Positions 3,297 through 50,364 of a stretch of 64,000 nucleotides of DNA are shown piece by piece; position 1 is the stretch's first letter, and each line of letters starts with the position of its first letter. The stretch lies in assembly GCA_040954595.2 (NCBI GenBank), contig CM082597.2:786786-850785 (forward strand), read 5' to 3'. Source of the DNA: Balanoglossus misakiensis. Lineage: Eukaryota > Animalia > Hemichordata. The translations under genes and the position numbers were made by a program. The notes under the pieces were generated by a model that made no database searches, was not told the origin of the DNA, and saw only the letters and a program-made list of their open reading frames with translations.

Positions 3297-3524
3297 TTAT
3301 TCTCTCATTGTAGCTTTTCTTGTTATGAAAACCAGGCGTTGAAATTGTGGCAGTAAAGTTGGAGAGTTCACAAGATGATCCGTCGTAGAGATACGATCGG
3401 CAAAAGAAATCGTTTTCATTCACACACATGAGCTTGCATGCATCCTCTGACACAGCTGCGAAAACTGCTCCAGGAAAGAATTCTATAGCAGTGTTTGGTG
3501 TTGGAGTGAACAAAGCTTCGAATT
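3297..3524 (-). CDS. Mosaic lectin gene exon 5: PAN/apple domain 2
   Basis: SEDACKLMCVNENDFFCRSYLYDGSSCELS...YNER, PAN cysteine pattern; phase 1/1. Confidence 0.85.
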
Positions 3525-3743
3525 CTGTAATGAAATACAAACGATGTACACATTGTTGAGTGTTAAATTGATGGTGCATATACAGTGACCTGATTAGTTG
3601 AAACACGAAAACTAAAGTACTACTATACCAAGTCTAAGGAGAAGCAAACTATATTTGAGATCATGGAGCAAAACAGTTTAGGGATGGTACCAGTATACCA
3701 CTCGCTTATACCAGTTCAACAGAATCCACCCTTTGTCCCTCAC

Positions 3744-21144: not shown

Positions 21145-24100
21145 ATGGAGGCTGAACAGAATTATCTCCGGAAGAGCGCAAGCCAGGTGAAGGAAATTCC
21201 ATTGTTTTCGGAACAGATGGCCGAGTTGTTCAACCAACAGAAAACAAGCGACGTATGCCTGCTTATCGATCAGATTCAGTACTATGTCCATAAAAACATA
21301 TTGTCGCGGGTCAGTCCGGTGTTTCGGAATCTGTTTGCCGAGGAAAGCGATGACGATGGCGGCGATGATGGCACGGTAGTGCAGCTGACTGAGACAGACG
21401 ATTGCCTGGTTGTTTTTCCTGTCTTCTTGAGGTATTTCTACTGTGGTCCGACTTCGCTGTCATTGAATGCTCTGAATGTCGTCCAGCTTCTGATTTTAGC
21501 GACCAAGTACGAAGTCGACCAACTGAGGAAACAGTGCCTTGATTGGATGCTGACATATCTAGATACTGCCACGGACAGTGGTGAGTTTGAACTTGACGTT
21601 GTTTTCGATTGGGCTTTGCATGGCTATATTCGAGAAGATATCGAACCTCAACACCTTCGTAAAAAATGCCTTGATATACTAAAATTACACATGGATGACG
21701 TCATCAACTCGGCGAAGTGGGCCGATCTCCCGTTGGAATATATTATGATCCTCCTTCAAGACGATGACCTTAGAGTTAGCGACGAGTACATGCTGTTCCA
21801 AGCAGTCGAAAATTGGCTTCTAGGAAACGGTCGCAAGCGGGCGCAGTCGAAGAACCTCTCTCCTGTGCTGCAACTTGTTAGATTCCCGATGATGACGTCA
21901 GACGATCTCTCCCTGATCCAGGAAACTTCTATCCTGTATGCAGAGAACAAAGACGAATTTCAAAAACACTTGGAAGACGCACGCCGGTTTCATTGTCTGA
22001 AAATCACGGAGAGCAGGAACGAGATCTCGCGGCACGTGATAGGCAACTACACGCGCAAGTACTGCAAGCGAAAGTACACGGGCACTCATGATCTTACTGC
22101 GGACCTATCAAAATCAAGCTATGACGACGAAAAGGAAACCGATGTTGCCATAGCAGCCGAGCTCTTATCCAATGGATTTGAAGTCTCTGTGTATCACCTC
22201 CATGAACGAAGTGACACTGAAACCTCGGCACCAAGAGTGACCGAGATGCCGAAAATTGTGAGTCCAAAAAGAGGGATTCTGAAAAAGAACATGGTAGAAC
22301 GTTCAAAATCAGAAAGTTGCATAGATGCTTTCCGCGAAGCAAACACCAACGACACCGAAGAAGTTCCGAGTGATACCGACCTGGATTTTTTGAAATCATA
22401 CGACAACGTTGAATTGTCTGACATCGACAACCTTTCATCGGAGAAAGAGGGCACTGTAGATTTCGAGATTGATATGGATCCTGTGAAAGCAATTTCAAAC
22501 GACGCGTCTGTACAGCGATCGGAGAACGCCGATGACAGTGGAGAGGAGGGGAGGGTGTCAGACTCACGTCAGTCGACGTCACCCGTGTGTGTAGTTCAAA
22601 TCGACGGTTCTGAGCACCTCTCAGATAATGACGTCACTGTGGACGAACACAGCGAACGAATGAGCGTCCAAGATGTTTCGAAAACAAAGAAGACGAGTTC
22701 ACAGAAGACAGCTGACACACAGACTGATCTCTCGCTGCTAGACAAAGAAGTGTACTTCGATGAGCAAGAAGACGCAAAACGGGGAAATGCTGTCAATGTC
22801 CGGCGAATCGTGCGCAGTCGCCCCGAACGAGAAAACACCGCCAGTGTCAGAGGCGAGGACGAACCATCAGCAGACGACAAAAACAGCTTCGAAGCAGAGA
22901 GGATTCATGTTGAGCCACGTGGAGATGGCGAGGTGGACCACGTGATCGACGAACAGATCTCTGCGACAAAAATGAACCGTTCAGATGCAGCGACGGACTC
23001 TGACAGACCTGAATCTAAGAGCGAGACGCAACCACCCTTGCTTTCACAACAGAAGAATAACTTTGTCGCAAGAGCCGACAAAATGACTGAAACTGATATA
23101 CCCATAAGCCCAGAACATAAGGATGTATGCACAAGTTGTCACGAGAACTCCATCATGCAAGTAGATTTCAGAATCTTAAATACTGACAAGGCAACCATTG
23201 TTATGGATTGCTCCAGAAACAATGAAATAGTTCTGGAAATACAAAAAGTAAACAAGGGAACAATGACTGAAGTTCTGAACCCGAAAGAATCGAAAGGCAC
23301 GTCTGTCTGCGAAAATTGTTTCAAAATTGGGAGTCATCGATCTCGAACGGCTCACACAAAGTCCACGCATAAACTGCCAAGAAGTGCCCCGGTGTCAGAG
23401 GTCAAGGAGCCTCTTCCTCGTACGGTGAACATTCCATTTTTGCACGGCGGCATCGAGGCAGAAGTTCGCCCCCTCGCGGCAGTTGAGCCTTATCCTCGAG
23501 GCCTGGCCAAGTCAAAAGGCGAAGAAGAATGTTCTGAACCACACCTGCCGTTTATCGAAGAAAAGACCAACGGTAGTGCGCTGGTGGCAAACGATTACGA
23601 GGTTGCCGATATTACTGCTCATGCGCCTTTCTTTCGACGTATATCCGAGAGTGGATCTACTGATGGCGCTGGTGAAATCACCATGGAAACCGAAAAGGAT
23701 AATTTAACACCTGATAATTGGCCAAGTATCTCGGAAGACAAGTCTGGATCGTCTTTGCATTCTGGTGCACCACAGTTTGACCGAAACAAAATCGAGACAA
23801 GATTGACAGCATCGCCAGAAATTCTACCCGGACTCAATCACAGCCTTTGTAAGGAGAGTGGTATTCGATACGACCAGGGACTCCAACAGGTTGTTTTCGT
23901 CCCGGAAGATTCGAGCGTTCTGGCAAGGACGATGATGCGCGTCAACGACGGGAATTACCTGAAAAGCATCAGAGAAGAAATTGAAGTAACAGACGGTGAC
24001 ATCTGCCATGACAAAGGAGAAGATGACGTCATATTGGCCGAAGCAGACGACCAACAAGATGGCGGTGACGCAAGTAACGAAAACAACAACACATCCTGCA

Positions 24101-24533
24101 GTCAGGAACCGGAAGCACAAAGCACGAACGACAATCTTCCCGCCAAGTTACTGTACTCTGAGATACTCAAGAAGCACACCGGAAAAGAATTGCACCATTT
24201 TCAAGAGGGTGACGATCCAAAAGTGTCTACTGGAAAAAATGATGGGCAATCGACTGAAGCAGACGACAATTACACATACTTTGAAAAACCAAGCGAATCT
24301 GGAAAGGGATCCACCATACGCCTTGGATCGGAAGACTCCAGAAACAATAATGACGTCATCTCGGAAAGTCAGACTTGTTTTCAAACTTCGAGGCCTGACA
24401 GGGACGATGAGGTATTCGTCGAAGCTACAAGCACAGCTCACGTGACATTCCGTTGGAATGGTGACTGTAGGGCGGCTAGTGTAGCTGGAGACTTTACATC
24501 ATGGGAGGAAAAGCCTATGGAATACGATGAAAA
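21145..24533 (+). CDS. BTB-BACK-IDR-CBM48 protein, paralog 1, exon 1 (about 1189 aa spliced)
   Basis: N-terminal BTB (SDVCLLI..YYVHKNILSRVSPVFRNLF; FLRYFYCG; ATKYEVDQLRKQC) and BACK (EYMLFQAVENW; VRFPMM), then about 780 aa of acidic low-complexity linker, then VTFRWNG...VAGDFTSW. The ORF stop overlaps an AA|gtaagt donor. Confidence 0.92.
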
Positions 24534-24662
24534 GTAAGTAAAGGTTGCTATTCATTCAATAGTGAAGATGCACGTTTCTCTCAATACCAAGAAAATCTCG
24601 AACCCTGTTTTTGAAAAAATACAACCTAACACCCTGTTTTCTTGCATTGTTATTTTTCACAG

Positions 24663-24756
24663 AAATGGGTGTTTTGTCTGTACATTGGACCTAGCAGACG
24701 GTGAACACCATTACAAATACTTCATCGATGGTGAATGGAAACTCAAAGCCGATGAA
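24663..24756 (+). CDS. Paralog 1 exon 2: core of AMPK-beta-type glycogen-binding domain (CBM48)
   Basis: tttttcacag acceptor, 94 nt, phase 2/0; NGCFVCTLDLADGEHHYKYFIDGEWKLKADE. Confidence 0.92.
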
Positions 24757-25168
24757 GTAAGTTGACTTCTTATTTTGAATAAGCCAAAACCTCACGTGCC
24801 AACAGAAGGCCAAAACTTGCGACTGTTTGGCTTTCACTCCAGCCAGACAAGGGCACGGTCTGTGTGTGAAAGTGTCAAAACAGTCATGTCTTTATAAAGG
24901 AGGAGTGTCGTCCGAACTGCACATGTGCGACTTTTCGCTGTTCATGGGACCCAGCCCACCAACACATGTTATATCGAAGTAAATTGTAAACGTTAAAATG
25001 TAACGAAGTCTTGTTTGTCGTGATGTACAGAGTGATACAAAGTAACCGCCGCATTCTTTATTATGATGTACAATGTAGCCAGTTACACTTTGCGCCTACT
25101 CTGATACGCTGGCACAATCAGCCGCAGACGATACAACACACACGCTGATTCGTCTATTTTCATTGTAG

Positions 25169-25255
25169 GATGACGTTCAAGGACCGTACGGACCCAATCA
25201 CGTTGTTCGAATTAAACATGGAAAGCAGGTCACACAAACAGCCAGCCCATGTTGA
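25169..25255 (+). CDS. Paralog 1 exon 3 (terminal): end of CBM48
   Basis: cattgtag acceptor; DDVQGPYGPNHVVRIKHGKQVTQTASPC-stop, similar to the AMPK-beta GTVNNIIQV strand. Confidence 0.8.
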   Translation, partial: DDVQGPYGPNHVVRIKHGKQVTQTASPC

Positions 25256-26438
25256 TATATGATGCTGCACGAACCCAGTTGACCTCAGATTGACCCTTCG
25301 GCTGGGGTACGAACAGCTGTGGAGGCATAAATAGAAGCTATGAATGTACCAGCTTTTAAAGTGTGACCTGTTTATGGCGGGACTGTGAGTCTGTCTACTC
25401 AAGGAGGCAATACAATTGTAAACAAAAGTAAAGTTAATGCTAATACTCGTCATATTTACACTGCATATATATTTACCAAGTAAGACATTTTGTTAAAAGT
25501 ATATATTTATCAGAACTATCGTGTGTGTGTTCATACATAAGTGACAAGAACTATGCAAAGTCAAAGTCTCTATTATTCTTATCAGTTGTTCCTTGTTATA
25601 AATCTGCAAATGGATGTATTGGAAACAACCTTGTAAGTTTCTGTTTCTATAATTGATTTTCATTTATTTTCAATGATTTCCCGTGTTTCCATGTTTTGTT
25701 TTATTTTCATCATACTCTGTTGTTCTTTCTGCCTCCCACCGTTATCAATATGTGTGTCCATTACAGCTTGATTGATTTTATATCAGGAGTATAGTCATAT
25801 GTATATCTGTATAATCCACCCGGACTACCTTAATACACTTCTCATATATTGTGGTGCTCATTATGCATTAACAGTACTGATAAATAAATAATCGTAAAAT
25901 CTGATGGTTGATATGTTTATATTTACCTAAAACAACTATGGGTCGAAGCTTTAAAAATCAAAATGAAATCGACGCGGATTGATGTCTCTGGCGCAAATCG
26001 CATCTGGGCAAGTTGCCAAGGCCTCGACAGTTGCCATGGTAAGCTTACTAACACAGAAGTAAAAGGTAAGCCTCGTATTCCAACAAGACACACCAACTTT
26101 AAGTTTTTCACAGAAAGTTTAAGTGTGTTGAGTGATCGAGTTTTGGTATTTTTCGGCCACATCTTCAGAACAGAAACTAGTAACATTAACCCGCGCAAAC
26201 AGATTAATCATTTAATGACTTCGACGTGGAGATTGAACAGAAACTGCCTCTGCTTCTGAGTATTGGCGGCCATATTGGGTTTTCCTCGAACCACACCAGA
26301 GCTCAAAGGTCTTAATCGTCCTATTTGTGCATTCGCACACGCTCATAACGCTATTGGCCGGCCAACAGGACACAGCGCATTCAACGAGTCGGCTGAGGTG
26401 AGATTATTTGCGGTGCAGGTGTAGATATTTCGACGTCG

Positions 26439-27188
26439 ATGCACAAAAGTCTACTGACGATGGAGACTAAAGTTTGCAACACTCACCTCATGGTTGAAAC
26501 CATGGCCGGTCTATTCAACCAGCCACAGTGGAGCGACCTCTGCGTTGTTATCGGCGACGAGGAATTTCGTCTTCACAAATTCGTCCTGGGATCGCACAGC
26601 CAGGCTTTTCGAGAACTTTTGAATCCTGATCACGCCCGTAAAGGCGATGACCTTTTCCATTACACCAAGGAATCCAACTATCCCTCAGAATGCGTGGAAA
26701 TCTTCCCGGATTTCTTACGTTATTTCTACACAGGGGAGATAGTGTTGTCACCAGGTAACGTCTTGCAAGTGTATGCTCTGGCGATGAAGTTCCAAGTTGG
26801 GGTGCTCAGCTATGAATGTAGAGAGTTTGTTGAAAGCTGCCTCAGTGGCAACAAGCTCTCCATTGATGGATACGTAGAATGGTACCTGTTGCTCCCTCGC
26901 CTGCTCGAACTCGATGGTGATCTAAAGTGGGTTAAAGATAGCCTCTTTGATATCTTCAAAGCCGAGTTTTATAGACTCGTGCAAACCGAAAGCTTCCTAA
27001 AGCTGGGTCGACAAGACGTGGATCATCTGATCATGGAGTCTGATGTGAAGGCTGGAAATGAGTACAGTCTGTTCAAAGGTGTAGAAAAATGGTACGAATC
27101 AAACCCAGACGACATGTCAACATTTCCAGACGTCATGGGGTACATCCGCTTCCCGTTAATGACAGTGGACGAACTAGATGAAATCCAG
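26439..27188 (+). CDS. BTB-BACK protein, paralog 2, exon 1 (start may be the ATG at 26460)
   Basis: LFNQPQWSDLCVVIGDEEFRLHKFVLGSHSQAF; FLRYFYTG; EYSLFKGVEKW; IRFPLM; CAG|gtaagt donor, phase 0. Confidence 0.9.
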
Positions 27189-27640
27189 GTAAGTTTTGCC
27201 TAAAAATCATTCACCCGGAGACTTCACGTGTGATTTTGACTCCTATTTTTAATTTTAATAGATATTCTACAATAAATGAAATATGTCTTTAGAGGTTTCT
27301 GTGCTATGCCCTTGCTGTATAGTGACCCCCATATTCAAATTAGGAGAACGAGACAAAAACATTCACAATGTATACATTGTGAGGTCACATGGGCAGTTTT
27401 GCTGGGTACAGATCGATGCTTGTAATTGTGAACAAGGGGCGTTTCTCGAATCAAAGTTTGAACCATGACCCCAAAACTTCAGTTGATTGATAGGACAGTT
27501 GATTGATGTTATTTATTTTATTGACCCCACACTTTAAGTTTACATATGCGTTCTCAAATGATTCAAATTGGTCTGGCTACTGCGACATGGTTTTTGTCAT
27601 CTCACAGAAAACTTAACATTTTCCATTTTATTCCCAACAG

Positions 27641-30600
27641 GTAAATTCAATGCTGTATTCCAAATTCCAAAACCACTTCAGCAAATACCTTCTGGAAGCC
27701 TATAGGTACCTCACTGCTGGCCACAAACATATGTCCGCCAGCAATATAAGGTATGAGCCACGACATTACTTGATGAGTCAGCATGGTGAATCTACTACAC
27801 CAGAGAACACAAATCTGAATGAATCTCACGAGAAAGACAGACAAGGAGAAATACATGATAAAGACATAAATTATGAAGAGCAGCCACAAGCACATTATGA
27901 AGATGAGATGAGTGACAGAGACTTGCCCTCAGAACTCGGTGTACAGAGAAACACCTGTGATGCTGCTTCACAAGCCCCGTATGTCCGGACCTTAACAGAC
28001 CAGGAGACACAAACGACAGACATGGATGAAAAATGTGTCAAAAATCAAATTGGCACACAGACAGATACTGGTACAGATAGTCTCCATGCATCCGACGACG
28101 ACCAAGATAAACCATCTAATCCTGATGAAAAGGAAGATTCCGACGACCATGAAGCTGAGAGTGATAGTGGTGATGATGGTGTAAATGAAAAGGGCGGCCA
28201 TGGTACAGATAGTCTCCATGCTTCCGACGACGACCAAGATAAACCACCTGTTCCTGATGAAAAGAAAGATTCAGGCGACAATGAAGCTGAGGGTGATAGT
28301 CGTGATGATGGTGTAACTAAAAATGGCAGCCATGATACAGATAGTCTCCATGCTTCCGACGACGACCAAGATAAACCACCTGTTCCTGATGAAAAGAAAG
28401 ATTCAGGCGACAATGAAGCTGAGGGTGATAGTCGTGATGATGGTGTAACTAAAAATGGCAGCCATGATACAGATAGTCTCCATGCTTCCGACGACGACCA
28501 AGATAAACCACCTGTTCCTGATGAAAAGAAAGATTCAGACGACCATGAAGCTGGGGGTGGGAGTCGTGATGATGGTGTAAATCAAAATGGCAGCCATGAT
28601 ACAGATAGTCTCCATGCTTCTGACGACGGCCAAGATAAACCACCTGTTCCTGCTGAAAAGAAAGATTCAGACGACCATGAAGCTGGGGGTGGGAGTCGTG
28701 ATGATGGTGTAAATCAAAATGGCAGCCATGATACAGATAGTCTCCATGCTTCTGACGACGGCCAAGATAAACCACCTGTTCCTGCTGAAAAGAAAGATTC
28801 AGACGACCATGAAGCTGGGGATGGGAGTCGTGATGATGGTGTAAATCAAAATGGCAGCCATGATACAGATAGTCTCCATGCTTCTGACGACGGCCAAGAT
28901 AAACCACCTGTTCCTGCTGAAAAGAAAGATTCAGACGACCATGAAGCTGGGGGTGGGAGTCGTGATGATGGTGTAAATCAAAATAGCAGCCATGATACAG
29001 ATAGTCTCCATGCTTCCGACGACGACCAAGATAAACCACCTGTTCCTGATGAAAAGAAAGATTCAGACGACCATGAAGCTGGGGGTGGGAGTCGTGATGA
29101 TGGTGTAAATCAAAATGGCAGCCATGATACAGATAGTCTCCATGCTTCTGACGACGGCCAAGATAAACCACCTGTTCCTGCTGAAAAGAAAGATTCAGAC
29201 GACCATGAAGCTGGGGGTGGGAGTCGTGATGATGGTGTAAATCAAAATAGCAGCCATGATACAGATAGTCTCCATGCTTCTGACGACGGCCAAGATAAAC
29301 CACCTGTTCCTGCTGAAAAGAAAGATTCAGACGACCATGAAGCTGGGGGTGGGAGTCGTGATGATGGTGTAAATCAAAATAGCAGCCATGATACAGATAG
29401 TCTCCATGCTTCCGACGACGACCAAGATAAACCACCTGTTCCTGATGAAAAGAAAGATTCAGACGACCATGAAGCTGGGGGTGGGAGTCGTGATGATGGT
29501 GTAAATCAAAATGGCAGCCATGATACAGATAGTCTCCATGCTTCCGACGACGACCAAGATAAACCACCTGTTCCTGATGAAAAGAAAGATTCAGACGACC
29601 ATGAAGCTGGGGGTGGGAGTCGTGATGATGGTGTAAATCAAAATGGCAGCCATGATACAGATAGTCTCCATGCTTCTGACGACGGCCAAGATAAACCACC
29701 TGTTCCTGCTGAAAAGAAAGATTCAGACGACCATGAAGCTGGGGGTGGGAGTCGTGATGATGGTGTAACTAAAAATGGCAGCCGTGGTACAGATAGTCTC
29801 CATGCTTCTGACGACGACCAAGATAAACCACCTGTTCCTGATGAAAAGAAAGATTCAGACGACCATGAAGCTGAGGGTGGGAGTCGTGATGATGGTGTAA
29901 CTAAAAATGGCAGCCATGATACAGATAGTCTCCATGCTTCTGACGACGACCAAAATAAACCACCTGTTCCTGCTGAAAAGAAAGATTCAGACGACCATGA
30001 AGCTGGGGGTGGGAGTCGTGATGATGGTGTAACTAAAAATGGCAGCCATGGTACAGATAGTCTCCATGCTTCTGACGACGACCAAAATAAACCACCTGTT
30101 CCTGCTGAAAAGAAAGATTCAGACGACCATGAAGCTGAGGGTGGGAGTCGTGATGATGGTGTAACTAAAAATGGCAGCCATGATACAGATAGTCTCCATG
30201 CTTCTGACGACGGCCAAGATAAACCACCTGTTCCTGCTGAAAAGAAAGATTCAGACGACCATGAAGCTGGGGGTGGGAGTCGTGATGATGGTGTAACTAA
30301 AAATAGCAGCCATGATACAGATAGTCTCCATGCTTCTGACGACGACCAAGATAAACCACCTGTTCCTGCTGAAAAGAAAGATTCAGACGACCATGAAGCT
30401 GGGGATGGGAGTCGTGATGATGGTGTAAATAAAAATAGCAGCCATGATACAGATAGTCTCCATGCTTCTGACGACGGCCAAGATAAACCACCTGTTCCTG
30501 ATGAAAAGAAAGATTCAGACGACCATGAAGCTGAGGGTGGGAGTCGTGATGATGGTGTAACTAAAAATGGCAGCCATGATACAGATAGTCTCCATACATC

Positions 30601-31582
30601 CGACGACGACCAAGATAAACCACCTGTTCCTGATGAAAAGAAAGATTCAGACGACCATGAAGCTGAGAGTGATAGTGGTGATGATGGTGTAAATGAAAAG
30701 GGCGGCCATGGTACAGATAGTCTCCATGCTTCTGACGACGACCAAGATAAACCACCTGTTCCTGATGAAAAGAAAGATTCAGACGACCATGAAGCTGAGA
30801 GTGATAGTGGTGATGATGGTGTAAATGAAAAGGGCGGCCATGATACAGATAGTCTCCATGCTTCTGACGACGGCCAAGATAAACCACCTGTTCCTGCTGA
30901 AAAGAAAGATTCAGACGACCATGAAGCTGGGGGTGGGAGTCGTGATGATGGTGTAAATCAAAATGGCAGCCATGATACAGATAGTCTCCATGCTTCTGAC
31001 GACGACCAAAATAAATCATCTGTTGCTGCTGATGAAAAGGAAGATTCAGGCGACCATGAAGCTAAGGGTGATAGTCGTGAAGATGGTGCAACTGAAAAAG
31101 GCGGCCATAGTACAGATAGTCTCCATGCTTCCAACGACGACCAAAATAAATCATCTGTTCCTGATGAAAAGAAAGATTCAGACGACCGTGAAGCTGAGGG
31201 TGATAGTGGTGTTGATGGTGTAACTAAAAATGGCAGCCATGGTACAGATAGTCTCCATGCATCCGACGACGACCAAGATAAACCATCTGTTCATGATGAG
31301 AAAGATTCAGGCGACAATGAAGCTGAGGGTGATAGTCGTGGTGCAGGTGTAACTAAAAATGGCAGCCGTGGTACAGATACGCCCCCTGATCCTCAAGACA
31401 CCTCAGAACAAAAGTCAGAGAAGGAAGAGAAAGATGAACAGACGAGTGATGATGATCCCCAAAAAACGACACCGAAGGAGGCCGAAGACAGCTCGAATCT
31501 GGGAAATGTACAGCAGACAAAAACAGATGTTGGAGAAGAAATTGACAGTGACAAAAAGGACAACAGTGATAATGTTAACTGA
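27641..31582 (+). CDS. Paralog 2 exon 2: end of BACK region plus Asp-rich 44-aa tandem repeat tail; no CBM48
   Basis: ttcccaacag acceptor in frame with the 1310-aa ORF. LLEAYRYL...YEPRHY matches paralog 3 LVEAYRFH...FEQRNY. Spliced length about 1563 aa. Confidence 0.85.
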   Translation, partial: VNSMLYSKFQNHFSKYLLEAYRYLTAGHKHMSASNIRYEPRHYLMSQHGESTTPENTNLNESHEKDRQGEIHDKDINYEEQPQAHYEDEMSDRDLPSELGVQRNTCDAASQAPYVRTLTDQETQTTDMDEKCVKNQIGTQTDTGTDSLHASDDDQDKPSNPDEKEDSDDHEAESDSGDDGVNEKGGHGTDSLHASDDDQDKPPVPDEKKDSGDNEAEGDSRDDGVTKNGSHDTDSLHASDDDQDKPPVPDEKKDSGDNEAEGDSRDDGVTKNGSHDTDSLHASDDDQDKPPVPDEKKDSDDHEAGGGSRDDGVNQNGSHDTDSLHASDDGQDKPPVPAEKKDSDDHEAGGGSRDDGVNQNGSHDTDSLHASDDGQDKPPVPAEKKDSDDHEAGDGSRDDGVNQNGSHDTDSLHASDDGQDKPPVPAEKKDSDDHEAGGGSRDDGVNQNSSHDTDSLHASDDDQDKPPVPDEKKDSDDHEAGGGSRDDGVNQNGSHDTDSLHASDDGQDKPPVPAEKKDSDDHEAGGGSRDDGVNQNSSHDTDSLHASDDGQDKPPVPAEKKDSDDHEAGGGSRDDGVNQNSSHDTDSLHASDDDQDKPPVPDEKKDSDDHEAGGGSRDDGVNQNGSHDTDSLHASDDDQDKPPVPDEKKDSDDHEAGGGSRDDGVNQNGSHDTDSLHASDDGQDKPPVPAEKKDSDDHEAGGGSRDDGVTKNGSRGTDSLHASDDDQDKPPVPDEKKDSDDHEAEGGSRDDGVTKNGSHDTDSLHASDDDQNKPPVPAEKKDSDDHEAGGGSRDDGVTKNGSHGTDSLHASDDDQNKPPVPAEKKDSDDHEAEGGSRDDGVTKNGSHDTDSLHASDDGQDKPPVPAEKKDSDDHEAGGGSRDDGVTKNSSHDTDSLHASDDDQDKPPVPAEKKDSDDHEAGDGSRDDGVNKNSSHDTDSLHASDDGQDKPPVPDEKKDSDDHEAEGGSRDDGVTKNGSHDTDSLHTSDDDQDKPPVPDEKKDSDDHEAESDSGDDGVNEKGGHGTDSLHASDDDQDKPPVPDEKKDSDDHEAESDSGDDGVNEKGGHDTDSLHASDDGQDKPPVPAEKKDSDDHEAGGGSRDDGVNQNGSHDTDSLHASDDDQNKSSVAADEKEDSGDHEAKGDSREDGATEKGGHSTDSLHASNDDQNKSSVPDEKKDSDDREAEGDSGVDGVTKNGSHGTDSLHASDDDQDKPSVHDEKDSGDNEAEGDSRGAGVTKNGSRGTDTPPDPQDTSEQKSEKEEKDEQTSDDDPQKTTPKEAEDSSNLGNVQQTKTDVGEEIDSDKKDNSDNVN
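28073..31372 (+). repeat. Coding minisatellite, 25 x 132 bp (44 aa: TDSLHASDDDQDKPPVPDEKKDSDDHEAGGGSRDDGVNQNGSHD)
   Basis: ACAGATAGTCTCCAT recurs every 132 bp from 28073, with one +3 and one -3 in-frame indel near the 3' end. Confidence 0.97.
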
Positions 31583-32663
31583 TGTTGCTGGCGTTCATGC
31601 ACACGATAAGGCTTTATTTTATTTTATCAGTTTTATGGCTGTACAGTTTCTTGGCATTATTTAGTTGTTCTGTTGTAGTTTGAAAAAAAAGCTTTGTAAT
31701 TTCTGTTAAAATATTACCAATTTATGAGTTTCACAAAGAGTCAGTTTATGTGATATTGTCACCAATTAAGCACAGAATTCTACATCTTGACAACATAATT
31801 TAGTTCACCTTCAAACATGGCCGCCAACCTTTACTAGTAGCATCATGCAGGAAATACTGCGGACTAGACAGTCTGTTCGACTACAACTATAACCACCTTT
31901 GATTTACACGTTTCCGTGCATAGTCCAAAGGCCATGCTTGTGGCTTCAAGTGCCTGTGTGGTGGCGCATTTTATTTTCGCATAGCAACACCAGTTGAAAC
32001 CTGTGACTGACTATATCTCCCATTCCAATAATAAATGTTGCTAAATTTGATTAGGTGGCTGTATATCTTGCGTTCTTTCTTCTTTCAATATGGGTGAAAA
32101 TTCCACTTTACTCCTTTCATTTTTGGTTCATTGGAAACAGTTACTGATGCAGTTCAGAGTATTGTGGCTAATTAATATTCATGAGTTCCATGAACGCATA
32201 AGAAAACCACGCGCCTGATACACAGCGTGTACAGTGCTTGATCTAGGTCGACACAGTTAAAGACTTAGCCTTACACGAACAGCCTTCTTCTTGACAAAGC
32301 AGATACTGCGTGCATATTTAGTTTTTGAGGACGACGATTTCGCGGTTCGGGTTAAAGGCTGACAAGTGAGAGTGGTGATGGTACTGATGTCAAACGCGGG
32401 ATGTTAACAAAATCGTTCCTGACGAGCAGCTTGGGAAACAAGAAGCCACGTACGCTTTGGTGATCCGGCAGCTAAGTTAGATATTAACAATTTGAATTGA
32501 ACAGGCTGTGGCGTAGTGTTGCCTGTGTGTTAATTTTGCTTTAAAGTTTAGCAAGTCCAAACTGTGGATTGTTGTCTATGCCATAGCGAGCTTGAAGACG
32601 CCAGATTTGTAATTGTGCTTGTCGAAACAGAGAACTTGGTCCTCCACATTCAACGCTATCACC

Positions 32664-33401
32664 ATGTCAACCAACGTCTGCCATACCGACGAAATTCTGA
32701 AAATAGTCGAGGCATTATTCAATAAGCCTGAACTAAGTGACATGTGTCTGTGTGTCGACGGCCGGCAATATCACCTCCATCGATCAATAGTATTTCCACA
32801 GAGCAAAGTATTTCAACAGCTGTTCGAGTCAGCTGATAGCGCCACCGGTGTTGACCCTTATCACCGCGTAAATGAGGTCGGTCATATAACTGAATGCGTT
32901 ATACACATGGAGCAGTTATTTCGGTATTTCTACACCGGTAAAATCAACCTGACCACAAAGAACGCCGTTGGGATCATTCTGCTTGCTTACCATTACAAAA
33001 TTACGAAACTTGCCGTTGCGTGCCGAAGTTTCTTGAGGGAATATCTGCAAAGTAAAAGCGCTGATATTGAGGTCGTCTTTCGTTGGTACAAACATCCAAA
33101 CCTCCGTGATATCGAACACCTGCAATGGGTAGCGGAAGAGTGTTTGAAAGTGATAGAGCGTAGACTTGATGAAGTGATAAACTGTCAATCGATTTGGTTA
33201 AAGCTGGAATTCAACAGCGTTTGGGTCTTCCTGCAAAGCTCTGAAGTAAAAGTGAAGGATGAGTACAGCTTCTACAAAGCGCTAGTCAGATGGCTAATGA
33301 ATGCTTACAATGATGGCGACGAACTGGACACGAAGTCAAGAGAGTTTCTGGAATACGTACGCTTTCCAATGATGTCACCAAGAGATTTGGGATACCTACA
33401 G
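32664..33401 (+). CDS. BTB-BACK-IDR-CBM48 protein, paralog 3, exon 1 (about 725 aa spliced)
   Basis: accATG start; LFNKPELSDMCLCVDGRQYHLHR; FRYFYTGKINL; DEYSFYKALVRW; VRFPMM; CAG|gtaatg donor. Confidence 0.9.
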
Positions 33402-33514
33402 GTAATGATTTCCTCATTTTAGACTAATGTCTGTTTATCTGTCACAAAACCATCCATCACTTCAAATATAGCATTTTCTAAATATATATATATTCTTCAA
33501 TGTTCTGCACACAG

Positions 33515-34653
33515 GAAACTTGTCCACTATACAAACGGTACCGTTTGCTGTATGATAGTCTGTTAGTGGAGGCGTACAGGTTTCACAGCACCAGGGACAT
33601 CGCTGCATTCTGGGGAAATCCACGATTCGAACAGAGGAACTATATCAAACGCCCAGCAAAAGTGCCAGTGACCGAAAAACAGCGGTCTCGGCATTCTGTT
33701 TTGCAGCAACGACGCACACCCACCACGCAAGCTGCACCTGCACCCAACCCCAAAGACAGTGACGATACACATCTGGATAAAAAGCGCCACCAGGAGGGCG
33801 ATCTCTGCGCTGGTCATGATAAGAAGGGAAATGGTACAGTTGATCATAGCGGCGATAAAGGTGAAGGCCAAAGCATTGCAGACAATGCTGTTCCCACAAG
33901 ACCTATTCCACAGAAATCAGAACTGGTTGAGTCTAGTGCAGCAAGAATTAACACCCATGAGACCCAGAGTTTGCAGACGAAAAGTGTTCACACAGAACAC
34001 ACGCATGGCAATGATGGAAATGGTGCTGGTTCAGTCACCGAAACAGAACCCTCGGAACGTAACCCACGCCCAGGTCTCCAGAGTCCCCCGCGCCATGGTG
34101 AGGGTCAGAGAACAGCTAGTGCTTCGAGTAAAGGCGAGGAAGGTGACATTGCAGATGATGGACCTGTTATGGAGGATGAAGTATACCCAAGTCAAGATAA
34201 GACAGAAAATGGCACCGTAAGTACCAGTGACAAAGATCAAAGCATTGTAGTTACTGCTGTTCCGCCCAAACCGCCACAGAAATCAGAAATGAATGGGTCA
34301 AGTCCTGCCAGAACAGACAATCATGAGTCCCAGAATTTGCAGATGAAAGCAGAAGACTCACAGAGAAATGATGGACATGATGGTGGTTCAGACACTGAAA
34401 CAGAATCTGTGGAGAGTGACCCGGACCCTGGTCGGGGTTCTCCGGGTCATGACCCCCAGGGTGAGAAAACAGAGCGTGCTATAGATGGAAGTGATGAAGA
34501 CGAAGTTTTGGATGCGGAATCGCAAGACAACGTTGATTTCTTGCAAGGAAATACCACCCCTATTGTATTCAAATGGGACATGGATGGTCGTGATGTGTCT
34601 GTAGCAGGGAATTTCACCAACTGGACAAAAATACCAATGACATATGATAACAA
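33515..34653 (+). CDS. Paralog 3 exon 2: end of BACK region, disordered linker, start of CBM48
   Basis: cacacag acceptor; ends PIVFKWDMDGRDVSVAGNFTNWTKIPMTYDNK with AA|gtaagt donor. Confidence 0.9.
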
Positions 34654-34829
34654 GTAAGTAATACACCATTTTAATGTCGATTCATCACAGACGTAGAAGT
34701 GCAAGTTTTCTGTGTATATTCATAAGTTTTATTCAATGAGCAAATCTAGCATTTCATTTCTACTTTTGACTTTCCTTTACAATAACTTTAAATGTTGAAA
34801 TACTCTAAAATGCAACTTTACATTTTCAG

Positions 34830-34923
34830 ATCGAAATGCTTCACTCATTCTTGTCAACTATTACCTGGTGACTATCAGTATAAGTACTTCATTGATGGTG
34901 ACTGGTGTATTGATCCGCGACAG
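34830..34923 (+). CDS. Paralog 3 exon 3: CBM48 core
   Basis: ttttcag acceptor, 94 nt, phase 2/0; SKCFTHSCQLLPGDYQYKYFIDGDWCIDPRQ; gtgagg donor. Confidence 0.9.
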
Positions 34924-35245
34924 GTGAGGAATTCTTTGAATGTTTACAAATAGAGCTTGCAGTAGCAATATGCATGGAGCATGTTTTATGACCCTTACCA
35001 TCGCTTATAACAAATGTGTTCTGCATACTGAATGATATGTTTGATACAACGTGAAAGTTTTCTTGGATAATGACACTTTCGGCCACTGTATAACTCCTAC
35101 AATTCAAATCCGAGAATGATGTCAGCCTGTCACTTAACATTTGTGGAGTAGATGTAAGCATATAAAGTCGAAAATAATGGTAGACCAACAGAATTCGCTA
35201 GATTGTATTATTTGGCATCATGCTTTCATTTGACGTGTCTTTCAG

Positions 35246-35452
35246 GAATCAATTCACGATCAGGGAGGTCATCAGAACAATGTCATAAGAGTAAAAGCGC
35301 GGGAAGGTCATTGCGAGTCACGTGACGATACGTCAGATCGGTCAGATGTCATCCAAGGTCAAGAGGTCACGTTTGACAACGTGGAAGGAGAACTTCCAAC
35401 AGACGTGCAAGACACAAATGACACCAGATCACCTTCACCAAGTGAAGACTAA
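35246..35452 (+). CDS. Paralog 3 exon 4 (terminal): end of CBM48 plus acidic tail
   Basis: tctttcag acceptor; ESIHDQGGHQNNVIRVKARE...SPSED-stop. The total CDS of 2178 nt is a multiple of 3. Confidence 0.85.
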   Translation, partial: ESIHDQGGHQNNVIRVKAREGHCESRDDTSDRSDVIQGQEVTFDNVEGELPTDVQDTNDTRSPSPSED

Positions 35453-36760: not shown

Positions 36761-36765
<5 letters not shown>

Positions 36766-36836
<71 letters not shown>

Positions 36837-36837
36837 G
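36766..36837. repeat. (TCTG)18 microsatellite
   Basis: Perfect tetranucleotide run. Confidence 0.95.
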
Positions 36838-39800
36838 CATGCCTGACTGCCTTTCTGTCACCCTCACTGAGCGTAAGATAAGGATTTCAAACACAAAGAA
36901 GTGACTCACTGACGGAAGCACCTTAAGGCATTGTACAAAAAGTACACATGTCTTTCTGATGTAGAACTATCCTCTACAGAACACGTCAGTGTTTTACAGA
37001 CTTTATCCTTATAAGTTCTTTCTTATAAATATATGAATATTTTCATTACACTTTTCCGTGATAAATCTAAATCGAATTTTCTCCTCCAAAACTCCAGAGG
37101 ATGTGTCTAAACAAGCAGAGACAATCAAAGAGGGCCGAAGGAGATATAAACTTGGTGGGATTTCCTTCGCGTTATTAAGGTGGCAAAATTATACGGGGTA
37201 TTAAATGCAGTGAATTTTCTTCTATTTATGGGAAATGTCTCGCGGGAAACCTGCTCGAATTTATTCTGCTTATGTTTATATCTCCTGGGTAGTGACTACA
37301 ATGATTCCTGTCGTGAGGAGTGAAGTTGGTGGATTTCCAGTCGTTTTATCTGCGTGGATTATTCTGAAGAAATCGGAACGAAGACCTTCCAAGTCAGGAT
37401 TCATGAATAAGAGAACAATCTCATCTCAGGAAAAGCCATAGGTAAATATTTTACCGCCAGCTATGCGTTTTAATAATGATCCTTGTCCACTTTGCTTTCA
37501 TTTCCGTTTTACTTGGTCTATTTTAGAATTATAATTGCGTCGATCTCACGACGCCAATATTTAAAAATATTTTCATAAATATTTGGATATATAGTTGTAC
37601 TCCCACAAAAACTTACCCAAGGAGAAAAGAATATGTGGATTTTTCTTTCTTTTCGTATTTGGTGTAGGCAAGACTCATCATAAATGAAACGACTGGGGAA
37701 TCTCTCCAAATGACTTTATTTCAAAGTTAAAGCCTTATCAATTAACGGCTGGATTCAAACAAGCTTATATCTAAGACTCCACTTTCCCACATTTTCTTAT
37801 CAGTTTTAGTTTTTACGACAATTATCTATGACTTCATAGTTCATAAAATTACTTCAACGACATCGCGCATCGCTGGTGATGTTTGACTTATGACCACTCT
37901 GTTATGAGACATGAGTATTTATTGCACTTAAGGGGAATGTTGTAATTTTGCCGTAATTGGCGATTTCATTCATTTATCTGTCCGCGTCGGCAGTCATCAT
38001 CAGGACCCACAATCCTTAGGGCATTTTTCGCCGGTTAAAGAAATGACGCATCTGGAAACATGCACGAGCGATTTGTCATAAGTTGTAGTTTAACAGTTTA
38101 CATATGAGCTGATGATTTCCCATTTTTGTCGTTCCAATAATTTCACTTTATCAATCGAGTGGGCTAACTTGCCCTTGGCATGTGTCTTGCGACATGTTCA
38201 AAAATACAGCAAAACACATCCATTTGGGGATAAAAGATGGCCAATTCAACCGGCCCATAATTTATAGCCAATTTTTAAATTCTAACTTCGTTATTACATT
38301 TTCGCTGATATATTACAATACATGTTATCGTGATAGTAGAAGGATATTAATTTTTTGGACGGAACCTGTATGACTAAATAGCAATTTCCTGTGGTTGACC
38401 TTCCGTGTGTACGTTACAAGAAGATCAGATGCGACAAACTAATCCATTAGCTATAAACTGAATTAGTTACATCAACCCATGGGGTCCTAAATTACATGTG
38501 CTCAACCCCAACGCCCAACAGGTCTATATTGATTGCAGCAATTTCATTTGTGGTACCTCAGGATTCTGCAGTGGGGGTGTGGTTTTGGGCTGTCACGATT
38601 TGTGATGATATTTTTTCCGGAGTGGTCTATCTCTCTCTCCATGCGTTTTATTACCATGTGCACCAAACCTTCCTAGTATAGGGAACGGAAGCTGAAAATA
38701 TTACATAAACATTTCATTGAAATTATTTTCATCTACAATTTAATGCACTGTGGTCAGTGTTCACCAAGATTCTCGTGACCAGATGAAGACCGGATTGCCG
38801 GTCACGTGACTATAAATTGACGGGGATGGGCAAGACAGATAATTGCTTATCGGAACCATATCTCTTCCACAAATCACATGTGACCTCGTCTGCTTTCACA
38901 AAGCCCATTACTGTGTTAGTGACAATATTTACCGGGCAATGCAATTGACATTTGCCCGCTAGTGACATATACGTTGCCCCAGGTTCTGTACTGCACGTAT
39001 ATACAAACAAATTAGCTGACAAATCCGGGCATTAACTCCATGTCCTGCTCAGACTTGTCAACGCAGATAGATTATACAAGTCACACGTCCAATTTCAGAT
39101 GAATAACGCGCGTGAAAAAGACTCCTCGCATATCAGGAATGATTTATTGATTTTCACGACATATTTTAATACGTTCAGTCTAGTGAGACTGAGAGAAATG
39201 CCTTCAATGATAATAGCAAATACATCAGTTGAATTCTCTGCGGGGAGCGCGTTGGTAATAGTATCATCCCACATCGCCCTCTTTCATCATTTCGCCCTAA
39301 GAACTGTTAACAACAACGCCTGCGATGATCAATGTCATAAGTGTATATCAGCTCTTTGATTATTAAAGACCTCACAGTTTGCTATCTGTCACTAGATTCT
39401 AATGACTTCATTAGCAGATGATGTTGTGTTAACCTCGCCTGCATCTCTTGCTGTCGCCTGTGATCATTGTCGATAAATTGAAAGCATTGAAGAGATAGTG
39501 ATGTGATGAGCAAGAGGGAATTGAGTTTATACTCCTGCGTCGTGCCTTCATCTTGGTTTAATTTGAGTGTCATTAGATCTATTTTACGTTTATGACATCG
39601 GTGGAGCTTTAACAAGGGTCTTGAAAGTTTTACTTTCGCGGGATCAGAGTCACCGTGAAGCGATGTGAAGTACTCCATGTATTCTCGAGACGAGGGGAAG
39701 GGCTTGGTTGACAGAGCAAAACAAACCATGTGTCTTGCATACTGGTATTTGGCTTAGTTACTCTCTATCAGCTCACACTGTCATAATTCAAATTCCATAT

Positions 39801-43907: not shown

Positions 43908-45113
43908 GTAACTGTCCCCTCGTCTTTTACTCAGTGCCTGGACAGGGCATTTGTTGTCCAGATTTCAGTGCATCAACGGTGTTTTCAACTTTTATACTGA
44001 GTAATCGAACTCTCAGTACCGCTTTCCACCTTATCTATGGTGAACTTGACAATATGAACTCTTTCCAATACTAATTTCGCGACGAAGCACTGTAAGTGTA
44101 ATTGATTGATGGGGAACTACAGAGACATGACTATTCTTCAGCCTAATTGTTCACAAGGTCTTGTTAAATTGTTCATAGATTGATCGCGTCCTTATTCGAA
44201 TTTCTCGTCTTTTGTGTCGAGCGAGAGAGGAGCCTGCAACCCGAGTCAAATTGATTAACAGGTATTGGAGACATAACTATACCGGCTTCCAGGTATTTAG
44301 AATGGTGGTTTTTGCTTTATTGCGCTTTCTTGCAAATATTGATGGCGGCGATCATCTGTGTCTAGCTAGTTTAGCTCACTGGTTTATCGTGTGATATTGG
44401 GCACAATAATAAACTTCAACTGTTCTAATGTTGTTAAAAAATCAAAACTAACAAAAACAGTAGTTTTGTTTTCGGTATTTGCCCAAGAATTTACGTGAGG
44501 AAGATTAGTGTTGCTGATGCAAAGAAGATACCACTCAAATGACAAAGCTTGTAATATATTTTTCATAAAGAGGATACCATCTACACTTTATCTCATAACA
44601 TTTACAAATATGACTGGTATCTTCAAATTGTACAAGAACCTCAGTAAAGTGGGTTCAACTTGTGTTGCGTCAGACTTTTCGTTGTTGCCAAGCAACGACA
44701 ATAAATCGCACATCTTGTAGTGCGCCTACGCACCACACTTTCAGAAACTGACATCAATGATAAACGCTTTCGATGCCACAAAATTTTTATCTCGAAAACC
44801 GTGATCATAGACACTGGTTTTCAAATTTGGTAACAAACATCAGTCATATTTTGACACCAGATAATGGTATCACTATCTTGTTTAAAAAGTAAAGGTCACT
44901 ATTATCGTCCACTTATACACCCATTAAAAGTACGGTTGAAAATATAACCGTTGGCAAAAAGATAAAACATATTTTTTGCACATACCTGCATCTGCGCATG
45001 CTCGACTGCCACCGCGCGCCACGTGTATGTTCAACTAAACAAGCTTTGCTCGACAGACACAAAAATACGATTATAAATTCATCTTGTGCTGATTTTTGTG
45101 TTTCTTTGCAGAC

Positions 45114-45478
45114 ATGTCGGCTAAGGTGATAATCTCTATGCTGTTTGTGATGACAACCTTGCTTGCATTTTGCGATGCCGTCAATTTCTGCAGAATGGGG
45201 ATAGGACCAAAGTGTAGGAAACACAACAAGGGTAAAAGGTACCCCCTCTACGACGAAGACGGTGATTCAGACATGCGAGACTTGAACGAGATCCAGAGGC
45301 GAGGAAACGATGGCGGGTATGATTTCTACCCGATTCTGCAGCCAGACGACAACTGGAACAGACAAATGAACGACAAGCATTACAGTCACGTGGCTAAGAA
45401 AAATAGCAATATGGATTTTTACCCAAGTGAAGAAGTTTTGCAGATGCTACTCAGAAAATACTATGGGAGCCAAGACAA
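45114..45478 (+). CDS. Neuropeptide/prohormone precursor, main coding exon (elevenin-like cyclic amidated peptide)
   Basis: tttctttgcag acceptor just before ATG 45114; signal peptide MSAKVIISMLFVMTTLLAFCDA, then VNFCRMGIGPKCRKHNK-G-KR; further RR, KK and RK sites and an acidic spacer. If unspliced it stops at 45482. Confidence 0.8.
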
Positions 45479-45701
45479 GTAAGTAATATACATACGCAAA
45501 ATAGACATCATTGAATAGCCTACAAGTACATAAGTAAATCCCTTTTGAGACTCCGGAAGTACTAGTAATTCGCTTAGGCAACAGACGAGACAGACACTGG
45601 CAGACAGACAGAGAGACAAGCAGGCAGGCAGACTTGATTGACACAAATTATGAGCATAATAATATTATCTTTAACAAATCTTTTTTTATCTTTGACATTA
45701 G

Positions 45702-49742: not shown

Positions 49743-50364
49743 GGTTTTAGATTTCCATTGAAAACTCTAAATTTGACATCAAATCGATCAGTTCACCACC
49801 GTCTGTTACCAGGAGTACAATCAATCACTGTTGTACAGTAGTGATGACACGTGATTCTCCGAAAACATATTTCGTTACGGTGAATTATTTCCATGATATT
49901 AAATAATTGATCCAGAAATTAAAATACTGTGTCGTGATAGAAATTCATTACAAACACGAATTTGATATGATGGTCACATATTGGGAAAGAGGGATTGTTT
50001 GCGTGTTATTAACAACGGTAACAGCTGGTCGTCCGGCGGCGATCTACGCATGCTCTGTAGAGCGGAATTCCAGCGAGTTAGTTTGGAAAGCGATTGATGA
50101 GAACATACTAGTAAAGTAACACTTTATCACATTTATTTTATCAATAATCAAACAATAAATGATAAAATATTAAATTGCATGTTTCTTCATAGCTTCATGT
50201 ATGTATGTGCGCTGTTTTCGACGGAAATTTGTTACATTTCTTTTCATTTTTGTGTGTAATTATAGTATTATCTGAAACACATGTTTCAAAAATTATTCAA
50301 AATGGCGGTCAGATCAGAGAGGAGGCAAACGCTACGTGGTTTTTGAAGTAACATAATCCCCCAA

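What the first reader, a model, noticed from the sequence alone, without database searches (positions are those of the whole stretch)
21145..35452. Family of BTB-BACK proteins fused to an AMPK-beta-type glycogen-binding domain (CBM48): candidate glycogen-targeted Cullin-3 ubiquitin-ligase adaptors
Seen: three tandem BTB-BACK paralogs. After manual splicing, paralogs 1 and 3 end in a complete CBM48 that the ORF track splits across exons (FRW..G....VAG.F..W...PM | F...L.L..G...YKYFIDG.W | G..N.V.RI/V). Positions equivalent to the AMPK-beta1 sugar-binding W100, K126, W133 and N150 are conserved. Established: BTB-BACK proteins are CUL3 substrate adaptors whose C-terminal module (usually Kelch or PHR) selects substrates, and laforin(CBM20)-malin is the known way animals bring an E3 ligase to glycogen. 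Inference: here one polypeptide may dock CUL3 on glycogen particles through a long flexible tether, forming an independently evolved glycogen quality-control or glycophagy system. I do not know a described protein with this architecture.
Basis: partly seen in the sequence, partly recalled or inferred. Interest (0 to 1): 0.9.

Follow-up and report, generated by a model that had tools for sequence, protein, structure and literature searches.

The report
Glycogen-binding BTB scaffold in acorn worms
Two of three neighbouring genes, most likely from an acorn worm, join a ubiquitin-ligase-adaptor-type BTB-BACK head to the glycogen-binding type of domain found in AMPK, but the head has lost the residues that normally grip Cullin-3, so the protein likely acts as a glycogen-tethered scaffold rather than a ligase adaptor.

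Summary
Three tandem BTB-BACK genes are present, and genes 1 and 3 end in an AMPK-beta-type CBM48 split by matching GT-AG introns. BACK sequence and the first third of the CBM lie in one exon, so the fusion does not depend on splicing. A Glandiceps talaboti RefSeq protein (XP_077985573.1, 'uncharacterized') has the same architecture and reads across both junctions. The family is BTBD17-derived and was found only in enteropneust hemichordates. AMPK W100, K126, W133 and N150 are kept; L146 and T148 are not. The CUL3-adaptor reading is weakened: all 7 family members lack the phi-x-E tryptophan (kept in 111 of 125 relatives) and the helix-5 aspartate (107 of 125), and have a longer 3-box loop, while core residues persist. 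Best reading (0.45): a CUL3-uncoupled, likely dimeric scaffold tethered to glycogen, with LC8-like and phospho-like linker motifs. A divergent or indirect CUL3 adaptor remains possible (0.25). There are no RNA, binding or CUL3-model data. The gene 3 orthologue models of two other species lack the CBM. The architecture was not found in print or in this scan's earlier notes.

The parts
21145..24533 (+). gene 1 exon 1: BTB, BACK, about 800-aa linker and first third of CBM48 in one exon
21223..22026 (+). gene 1 BTB-BACK (aa 27-294), BTBD17-like; model pLDDT 88.9, best structural match KLHL11
21337..21375 (+). gene 1 alpha3-beta4 loop (aa 65-77): acidic and Gly-rich, no hydrophobic residue, phi-x-E motif absent
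21502..21504 (+). gene 1 Thr120, at the helix-5 Asp position that bonds CUL3 Tyr125 in KLHL11, SPOP and A55
22711..22728 (+). gene 1 TQT motif (LC8-like, predicted)
23167..23694 (+). gene 1 conserved linker island (aa 675-850; 43% identical to Glandiceps) with a TMT motif at 23254-23271 and a near-invariant core at 23599-23652 holding an [RK]RxS site
24436..24533 (+). gene 1 CBM48 part 1 (W1120 = AMPK W100)
24663..24756 (+). gene 1 exon 2, 94 bp, CBM48 part 2 (K1148, W1155)
25169..25255 (+). gene 1 exon 3, CBM48 part 3 (Y1168, N1171) and stop
26460..27188 (+). gene 2 exon 1: BTB-BACK (start codon uncertain; an in-frame ATG also at 26439)
27641..31582 (+). gene 2 exon 2: end of BACK, two TQT motifs (28007-28066), acidic tail, no CBM
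28072..31379 (+). gene 2 coding tandem repeat, period 132 bp (44 aa), 25.1 copies, 95% matches
32664..33401 (+). gene 3 exon 1: BTB-BACK
33515..34653 (+). gene 3 exon 2: end of BACK, about 300-aa linker, CBM48 part 1 from 34556 (W616)
34830..34923 (+). gene 3 exon 3, 94 bp, CBM48 part 2 (K644, W651); ungapped register with AMPK-beta1 residues 109-139
35246..35452 (+). gene 3 exon 4: CBM48 part 3 (N668, N669), acidic tail, stop

Best explanation
Genes 1 and 3 encode BTBD17-derived BTB-BACK proteins fused through a long low-complexity linker to an AMPK-beta-type CBM48; they have lost the canonical Cullin-3 contact residues and likely work as CUL3-independent scaffolds, predicted to dimerise through the BTB domain and to hold glycogen particles with two tethered CBM48 domains. 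Shown: the fusion, its conservation in a second enteropneust (gene 1), four sugar-binding residues, and loss of the CUL3-contact features with retention of the BTB core. Inferred, in order of falling certainty: (1) the CBM binds glycogen; (2) the BTB dimerises, giving a bivalent binder that could span or cluster particles; (3) linker motifs recruit partners (LC8 through TQT/TMT, a kinase through the conserved [RK]RxS core); (4) the CBM came from an AMPK-beta gene by exon shuffling before the tandem duplications, replaced the ancestral C-terminal TRAF-like substrate domain, and was later lost from gene 2.
For: Fusion within single exons and matching CBM introns. The orthologue P0001 = XP_077985573.1 has BTB, BACK and AMPK1_CBM above Pfam cut-offs; the pair g1+P0001 has support 99/98. 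CBM identity g1/P0001 is 44 of 82 (53.7%), above BTB-BACK (120 of 253, 47.4%) and the distal linker (36 of 125 aligned, 28.8%), which indicates constraint. The best PDB matches of the P0001 CBM are AMPK-beta1 (E 6e-13), with plant, yeast and bacterial CBM48 at E 0.008 or worse. CUL3 features, 7 family members against 125 relatives: phi-column Trp 0 of 7 vs 111 of 125; helix-5 Asp 0 of 7 vs 107 of 125; 3-box W-to-C spacing 18-21 in 7 of 7 vs 15-16 in 92 of 94 scorable relatives; at most 1 of 4 contact features in 7 of 7 vs 8 of 125. Among 70 well-conserved columns, only 6 are changed in all 7 members, and these include the two CUL3 contacts. [quoted passage not shown] TRAF_BTBD17 is found in 7 of 16 outgroup proteins scanned and 0 of 4 family database proteins.
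Against: No binding, expression or localisation data exist. The phi-x-E motif is not absolutely required: A55 F54E loses only 7-20-fold and D99A little (10.1101/461806, passages), KLHL3 has Ser at the Asp position, and KCTDs bind CUL3 without the motif (PMC13061254, passages). The family sits on long branches, the loop alignment is ambiguous, 3 to 4 of 7 members keep an acidic residue in the E column, and my feature classes were set after viewing the alignment. L146 and T148 equivalents are changed, most severely in g3. The gene 3 orthologue models of Ptychodera (386 aa) and Saccoglossus (417 and 269 aa) carry no CBM. Monophyly of all 7 is weak (69/34; 83). LC8-like motifs exceed shuffles only in g1 (4 of 500), g2 (2 of 500) and P0004 (3 of 500), not in P0001 (212 of 500), are absent from g3, and were defined after seeing the data; many TQT peptides do not bind LC8 (PMC6607443). 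The [RK]RxS count alone is not above chance in g1 (205 of 500). The match to AMPK-beta intron positions is recalled, not shown by a call.
Confidence: 0.45

Rival explanations
1. The proteins are glycogen-targeted CUL3 adaptors after all, binding CUL3 through a rewired surface, or indirectly by heterodimerising with a canonical BTBD17-like adaptor, and ubiquitylating glycogen-bound proteins in the manner of laforin-malin.
For: Full BTB-3box-BACK fold with KLHL11-CUL3 entries as best structural matches (E 1e-9, TM 0.64). The CBM sits where relatives carry their C-terminal TRAF-like domain. Exceptions to phi-x-E are known. The same enteropneust genomes encode BTBD17-like proteins with the motif intact (P0009, P0010, P0012). 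The fly BTB-BACK protein Tango10 co-precipitates CUL3 without a Kelch domain being described in the passages seen (PMC8617488).
Against: Three separate CUL3-facing elements (alpha3-beta4 loop, helix-5 Asp, 3-box loop length) are all altered in 7 of 7 members, and the altered loops are not conserved among them. A 300-1600-residue tether fits poorly with the short E2-to-substrate geometry of BTB-Kelch ligases (inference).
Confidence: 0.25
2. The CBM48 is kept for something other than bulk glycogen tethering, for example as a protein-binding surface (as the AMPK-beta CBM packs on the alpha-subunit kinase lobe, recalled) or as a sensor of short branched oligosaccharides that regulates the BTB protein.
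For: L146 and T148 equivalents are changed in both genes, there is a 2-residue insertion near S108 and a 1-residue deletion before N150 in g1/P0001. AMPK's CBM acts as a regulatory sensor as well as a localiser (PMC2642990, passages).
Against: Both tryptophans, the lysine and the asparagine of the sugar site are kept in 3 of 3 CBMs; the linker makes intramolecular allostery unlikely (inference).
Confidence: 0.15
3. The cluster is a fast-evolving, partly decaying paralogue array: the CBM was captured once, matters at most in gene 1, and is being lost elsewhere; the BTB-BACK has no specific coupled function with it.
For: CBM absent from gene 2 and from the gene 3 orthologue models in two other species; long branches; repeat expansion in gene 2; linker length varies from about 800 to about 1620 aa between g1 and P0001.
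Against: All three reading frames are intact with consensus splice sites; the CBM is the best-conserved part of g1/P0001; g3 keeps the four key residues at 41% identity to g1; each of the three genes has a well-supported orthologue in another enteropneust.
Confidence: 0.15

Closest known systems
BTBD17-like BTB-BACK proteins (invertebrate expansion; C-terminal PF23651 TRAF_BTBD17 in many)
   Same: Nearest sequence family: most named best hits are BTBD17-like; shared core motifs through BTB and BACK.
   Different: C-terminal globular domain replaced by a long linker with or without CBM48; W-x-E/D loop and helix-5 Asp lost; 3-box loop 2-6 residues longer.
CRL3 substrate receptors of the KLHL/KBTBD/SPOP type
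   Same: BTB-3box-BACK fold (KLHL11 best by sequence and structure).
   Different: No Kelch, MATH or PHR domain; phi-x-E absent.
AMPK beta subunit CBM (CBM48, PF16561; PDB 1Z0M/1Z0N)
   Same: Closest solved relative of the CBM (E 6e-13); W100, K126, W133, N150 kept.
   Different: No beta C-terminal alpha/gamma-binding domain was detected by Pfam, so it is not an AMPK subunit; L146 and T148 changed; the domain is C-terminal on a long tether.
Laforin-malin (recalled) and the glycophagy receptor STBD1 (PMC12913940, passages)
   Same: A non-catalytic starch-binding module brings another function to glycogen.
   Different: Those use CBM20, not CBM48; here there is no phosphatase, no RING and no AIM/LIR enrichment. 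The main text of that survey does not mention hemichordates (supplements not read), so whether acorn worms have laforin or STBD1 is open.
XP_077985573.1, Glandiceps talaboti 'uncharacterized protein LOC144440168'
   Same: Orthologue of gene 1 with the same architecture, CBM and linker island.
   Different: 2013 aa against 1189 aa; an automatic model with no described function.

Membership tests
CRL3 substrate receptor (BTB-BACK type) | BTB domain followed by 3-box/BACK helices | tested here: met
   Pfam above cut-off in 3 of 3 genes; model pLDDT 88.9, KLHL11 match
CRL3 substrate receptor (BTB-BACK type) | phi-x-E/D motif in the alpha3-beta4 loop | tested here: not met
   0 of 6 parsed family members (P0002 not parsed; Asp in the Trp column) vs 94 of 111 parsed relatives; Trp column 0 of 7 vs 111 of 125
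CRL3 substrate receptor (BTB-BACK type) | helix-5 Asp bonding CUL3 Tyr125 (common, not universal) | tested here: not met
   0 of 7 vs 107 of 125; role from 10.1101/461806 passages
CRL3 substrate receptor (BTB-BACK type) | canonical 3-box alpha7-alpha8 loop | tested here: inconclusive
   Helices present in the model but spacing 18-21 vs 15-16 in 92 of 94 relatives
CRL3 substrate receptor (BTB-BACK type) | physical binding to CUL3 | not testable with these tools
   No CUL3 sequence was available to the folding tools
BTBD17-like family | BTB-BACK nearest to BTBD17-like proteins | tested here: met
   Named hits; the tree held only BTBD17-like hits and no KLHL outgroup
BTBD17-like family | C-terminal TRAF_BTBD17 domain | tested here: not met
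   Not detected in the window genes or 4 orthologue records; present in 7 of 16 outgroup proteins scanned
CBM48 / AMPK1_CBM glycogen-binding module | profile match to PF16561 over the domain | tested here: met
   Exon pieces E 1e-7 to 4e-4; P0001 51.6 bits vs cut-off 26.8; Atlas features 0.95 to AMPK1_CBM clusters
CBM48 / AMPK1_CBM glycogen-binding module | W100, K126, W133, N150 | tested here: met
   4 of 4 in g1, g3 and P0001; residues from PMC4032982 passages
CBM48 / AMPK1_CBM glycogen-binding module | L146 and T148 | tested here: not met
   g1 Y/P, P0001 F/P, g3 G/H; importance from PMC2642990 passages
CBM48 / AMPK1_CBM glycogen-binding module | beta-sandwich with correctly placed sugar site | tested here: inconclusive
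   Shallow-alignment model pLDDT 59.8; no fold match at E 0.001
CBM48 / AMPK1_CBM glycogen-binding module | glycogen binding | not testable with these tools
   Needs a pull-down or ITC
AMPK beta subunit | C-terminal alpha/gamma-binding domain after the CBM | tested here: not met
   g1 ends 10 residues after the CBM; no such Pfam hit in the g3 last exon or P0001
STBD1-type glycophagy receptor | CBM20 and Atg8-interacting motifs | tested here: not met
   CBM48 instead; AIM-like counts at or below chance in g1, P0001 and g3 linkers

The most novel reading that the evidence does not exclude
An animal E3-ligase adaptor has been repurposed into a dedicated glycogen-particle organiser: a BTB dimer with two AMPK-derived CBM48 heads on long tethers that cross-links or clusters glycogen particles and couples them to LC8 and kinase control, with gene 2 as a CBM-less modulator. 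It would be a non-enzymatic protein cross-linker of animal glycogen, a kind I know no described example of (recalled knowledge).
Probability: 0.2. Interest if true: 0.75.

Novelty: new variant of a known kind. Interest (0 to 1): 0.52.

Why it matters
In the animals I know of, CBM48 occurs in AMPK-beta and glycogen branching enzyme (recalled), and a survey of non-enzymatic CBM20 proteins lists only GPCPD1, laforin and STBD1 clades (PMC12913940, passages). A BTB-BACK-CBM48 fusion adds an independent route by which a deuterostome lineage put a protein-interaction hub on glycogen. Either outcome of the CUL3 test is informative: a convergent one-chain counterpart of laforin-malin, or a natural pseudo-adaptor showing how a ligase adaptor becomes a scaffold. 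Both domains are small and easy to assay. The reach is limited because the family appears confined to acorn worms and the function is untested.

Tried and rejected
No whole genome is held, so other copies and the organism's AMPK-beta, CUL3, laforin and STBD1 genes could not be examined. No RNA holder was listed, so no reads were laid; this is no evidence on expression. Three word-index protein searches were empty (1819 candidates, none at E 1e-10, and the 2013-aa orthologue lay outside the 621-1978 range; 2 candidates each, none scored). The Atlas gave no usable hit for gene 1 exon 1; for the CBM it listed 8 of 30 hits, none with a BTB family, but it covers only clusters of 50 or more members. 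The BTB-BACK two-copy folding job returned 'no answer'. The CBM model was low-confidence and uninformative. A ten-row alignment of exon pieces misaligned and was discarded. A metagenome scan for AMPK-beta loci with introns did not run. Two paper searches for AMPK-beta gene structure found nothing relevant in the listings. The first tree run did not finish. Rejected: chimeric mis-splicing of separate BTB and CBM genes (fusion lies within single exons); an AMPK-beta gene next to BTB genes (no beta C-terminal domain); glycophagy receptor (no AIM enrichment); PP1-targeting subunit (RVxF-like counts at chance); a zinc finger in the g1 linker (only one of two CxxC pairs is kept in P0001); Kelch family (P0002 is named kelch-like 24 but has no Kelch hit).
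Full report
Observation. The region holds three tandem plus-strand genes. Joining exons at GT-AG sites gives intact frames of 1189, 1556 and 725 aa, with consensus donors and pyrimidine-rich acceptors in 6 of 6 introns. Pfam finds BTB and BACK above cut-off in all three and AMPK1_CBM on the exon pieces of genes 1 and 3. A search of the window with the two CBMs finds no third copy. Both CBMs are split in the same way: phase-2 intron, 94-bp exon, phase-0 intron. The fusion does not rest on splicing, because gene 1 carries BTB, BACK, linker and the first CBM third in one exon, and gene 3 carries the end of BACK and the first CBM third in one exon.

Relatives. A profile of the three BTB-BACK regions plus the first CBM third was scored against 1.84 billion representatives; 12,745 passed E 0.001 and the best 150 were listed. 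Four of the top five are enteropneust proteins: Glandiceps XP_077985573.1 (P0001), Ptychodera XP_070551198.1 and XP_070551205.1 (P0002, P0004, with contigs of the same length and near accession numbers, which suggests the same cluster) and Saccoglossus XP_006822270 (P0005/P0151). The fifth, P0003, is a fish protein with three BTB-BACK repeats. The window is therefore most likely from an acorn worm (inference from best hits). Trees pair g1 with P0001 (99/98), g2 with P0004 (100/100) and g3 with P0002 and P0151 (99/96); g2 and g3 group together (98/95); the seven as one clade are weakly supported (69/34 on 31 rows; 83 on 132 rows). P0001 has BTB, BACK and AMPK1_CBM and aligns without a gap across both gene 1 junctions. 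It is an automatic RefSeq model, so it is independent of my splicing but is not an experiment. Of 166 stored proteins only P0001 has a CBM, and it was part of the profile used. The Ptychodera and Saccoglossus gene 3 models end without one; this may be loss or truncated models. The library shows one protein per 50% cluster and only the top 150, so further fusions may be hidden.

The CBM. The P0001 CBM matches AMPK-beta1 best (E 6e-13), far ahead of plant, yeast and bacterial CBM48. Gene 3 pieces map to human beta1 residues 77-107 and 117-138, so the 94-bp exon corresponds to residues 109-139. I recall that human PRKAB1 has introns at exactly these places; two searches found no paper to confirm it, so origin by exon shuffling is inferred. 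W100, K126, W133 and N150, the critical residues (PMC4032982, passages), are kept in 3 of 3 CBMs. L146 and T148, whose mutation also cuts glycogen binding (PMC2642990, passages), become Y/P in g1, F/P in P0001 and G/H in g3. The CBM is the best-conserved part of g1/P0001 (53.7% vs 47.4% for BTB-BACK). Glycogen binding is likely for gene 1 and less certain for gene 3.

The BTB-BACK and CUL3. The gene 1 head folds confidently (pLDDT 88.9) and matches KLHL11 best. CRL3 receptors of this type are defined by a phi-x-E motif and a 3-box (PMC13061254, passages). The phi residue enters a deep CUL3 pocket (PMC3597819; 10.1101/2023.02.15.528651; PMC3616122; passages), and a helix-5 Asp bonds CUL3 Tyr125 in KLHL11, SPOP and A55 (10.1101/461806, passages). 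Of 151 proteins considered, 22 were dropped (21 with incomplete BTB-BACK coverage, 1 duplicate gene), leaving 125 relatives and 4 orthologues plus the 3 window genes. The Trp is present in 111 of 125 relatives and 0 of 7 family members; the Asp in 107 of 125 and 0 of 7; the KLHL3 A77 position is D/E/N/Q in 6 of 7 against 38 of 125 polar or charged. The 3-box W-to-C spacing is 18-21 against 15-16 in 92 of 94. Core residues and the Asp36/His49/Ser57 set are kept in 7 of 7; their role at the dimer interface is recalled. The loss is therefore selective. Against this: A55 still binds CUL3 with the phi residue mutated, KCTDs bind without the motif, 8 of 125 relatives also score 1 or less, the loops align poorly, and the feature classes were set after inspection. 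CUL3 binding itself could not be modelled.

The linkers. They are acidic and Ser/Thr/Pro/Gly-rich; disorder is inferred from composition. Gene 1 and P0001 share one island (43% over 165 aligned residues) with a TMT motif and a near-invariant 18-residue core containing an [RK]RxS site. TQT-type motifs, the LC8 anchor (PMC6607443, passages), occur in g1, g2, P0001 and P0004 but not in g3 or its orthologues, with mixed shuffle support. AIM/LIR and RVxF motifs are at chance level. Gene 2 has a 44-aa acidic repeat in 25 copies that the 396-aa Ptychodera model lacks.

Mechanism. Most likely (0.45) a BTBD17-like adaptor lost its C-terminal TRAF-like domain (present in 7 of 16 outgroup proteins scanned), gained an AMPK-beta CBM48, lost its CUL3 contacts and triplicated. 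The product would be a dimer with two tethered glycogen-binding heads that anchors partners on glycogen or clusters particles. Shown: anatomy, conservation, residue losses. Inferred: glycogen binding, dimerisation, partners, order of events. Rivals: a divergent or indirect CUL3 adaptor (0.25), a CBM used for protein binding or sensing (0.15), a decaying array (0.15).

Novelty. 'CBM48' and 'BTB' occur together in 2 papers, both unrelated by title and abstract (listing only). AMPK1_CBM/PF16561, BTB and hemichordate terms gave 15 listings, none pairing the CBM with BTB. (25 of 556, 20 of 64 and 12 of 96 listed) showed nothing on it. The library lacks most subscription journals, and no supplements were read; a domain-architecture table in a genome paper's supplement could list it. 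The scan's own notes hold no earlier record. The architecture exists in RefSeq as an uncharacterised protein. Interest 0.52.

Noticed in passing
window 28072-31379: Coding tandem repeat in gene 2: 132-bp unit (44 aa, Asp-rich), 25.1 copies, 95% matches; absent from the 396-aa Ptychodera orthologue model, so probably a recent expansion.
   Followed up: partly
window 27188 and 33401 vs gene 1: Genes 2 and 3 share a phase-0 intron near the end of BACK that gene 1 lacks, matching the tree in which 2 and 3 are sisters; gene 2 would then have lost the CBM.
   Followed up: partly
window 24534-24662: Gene 1 intron 1 is 129 bp (in frame) with a stop at its start; retention would give a protein ending after the first CBM third.
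   Followed up: no
window 26460-27188 and 32664-33401: Genes 2 and 3 and their orthologues share a D-x-[FY]-H motif in the remodelled alpha3-beta4 loop (5 of 5), perhaps a new binding surface.
   Followed up: no
window 48447-49766 and 50365-51570 (-): Two tandem single-ORF sulfotransferase genes (PF00685).
   Followed up: partly
window 45093-45482 (+): 129-aa ORF with a hydrophobic start, a short Cys-containing segment and basic cleavage-like sites; looks like a secreted peptide precursor; no Pfam hit.
   Followed up: partly
window 2399-3633 (-): Exons with F5/8 type C and PAN domain matches, part of an extracellular multidomain gene.
   Followed up: partly
window 61469-63564: Two near-identical 140-aa spurious ORFs with internal repeats, indicating a satellite-like array.
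   Followed up: no
window 36764-36859: TGTC microsatellite, 24 copies.
   Followed up: no
P0002: Named 'kelch-like protein 24' by its source but has no Kelch domain by Pfam.
   Followed up: yes
P0130: Unnamed 602-aa BTB-BACK protein with a low-complexity tail and no W-x-E loop; groups loosely with the family on a long branch and has no CBM.
   Followed up: partly
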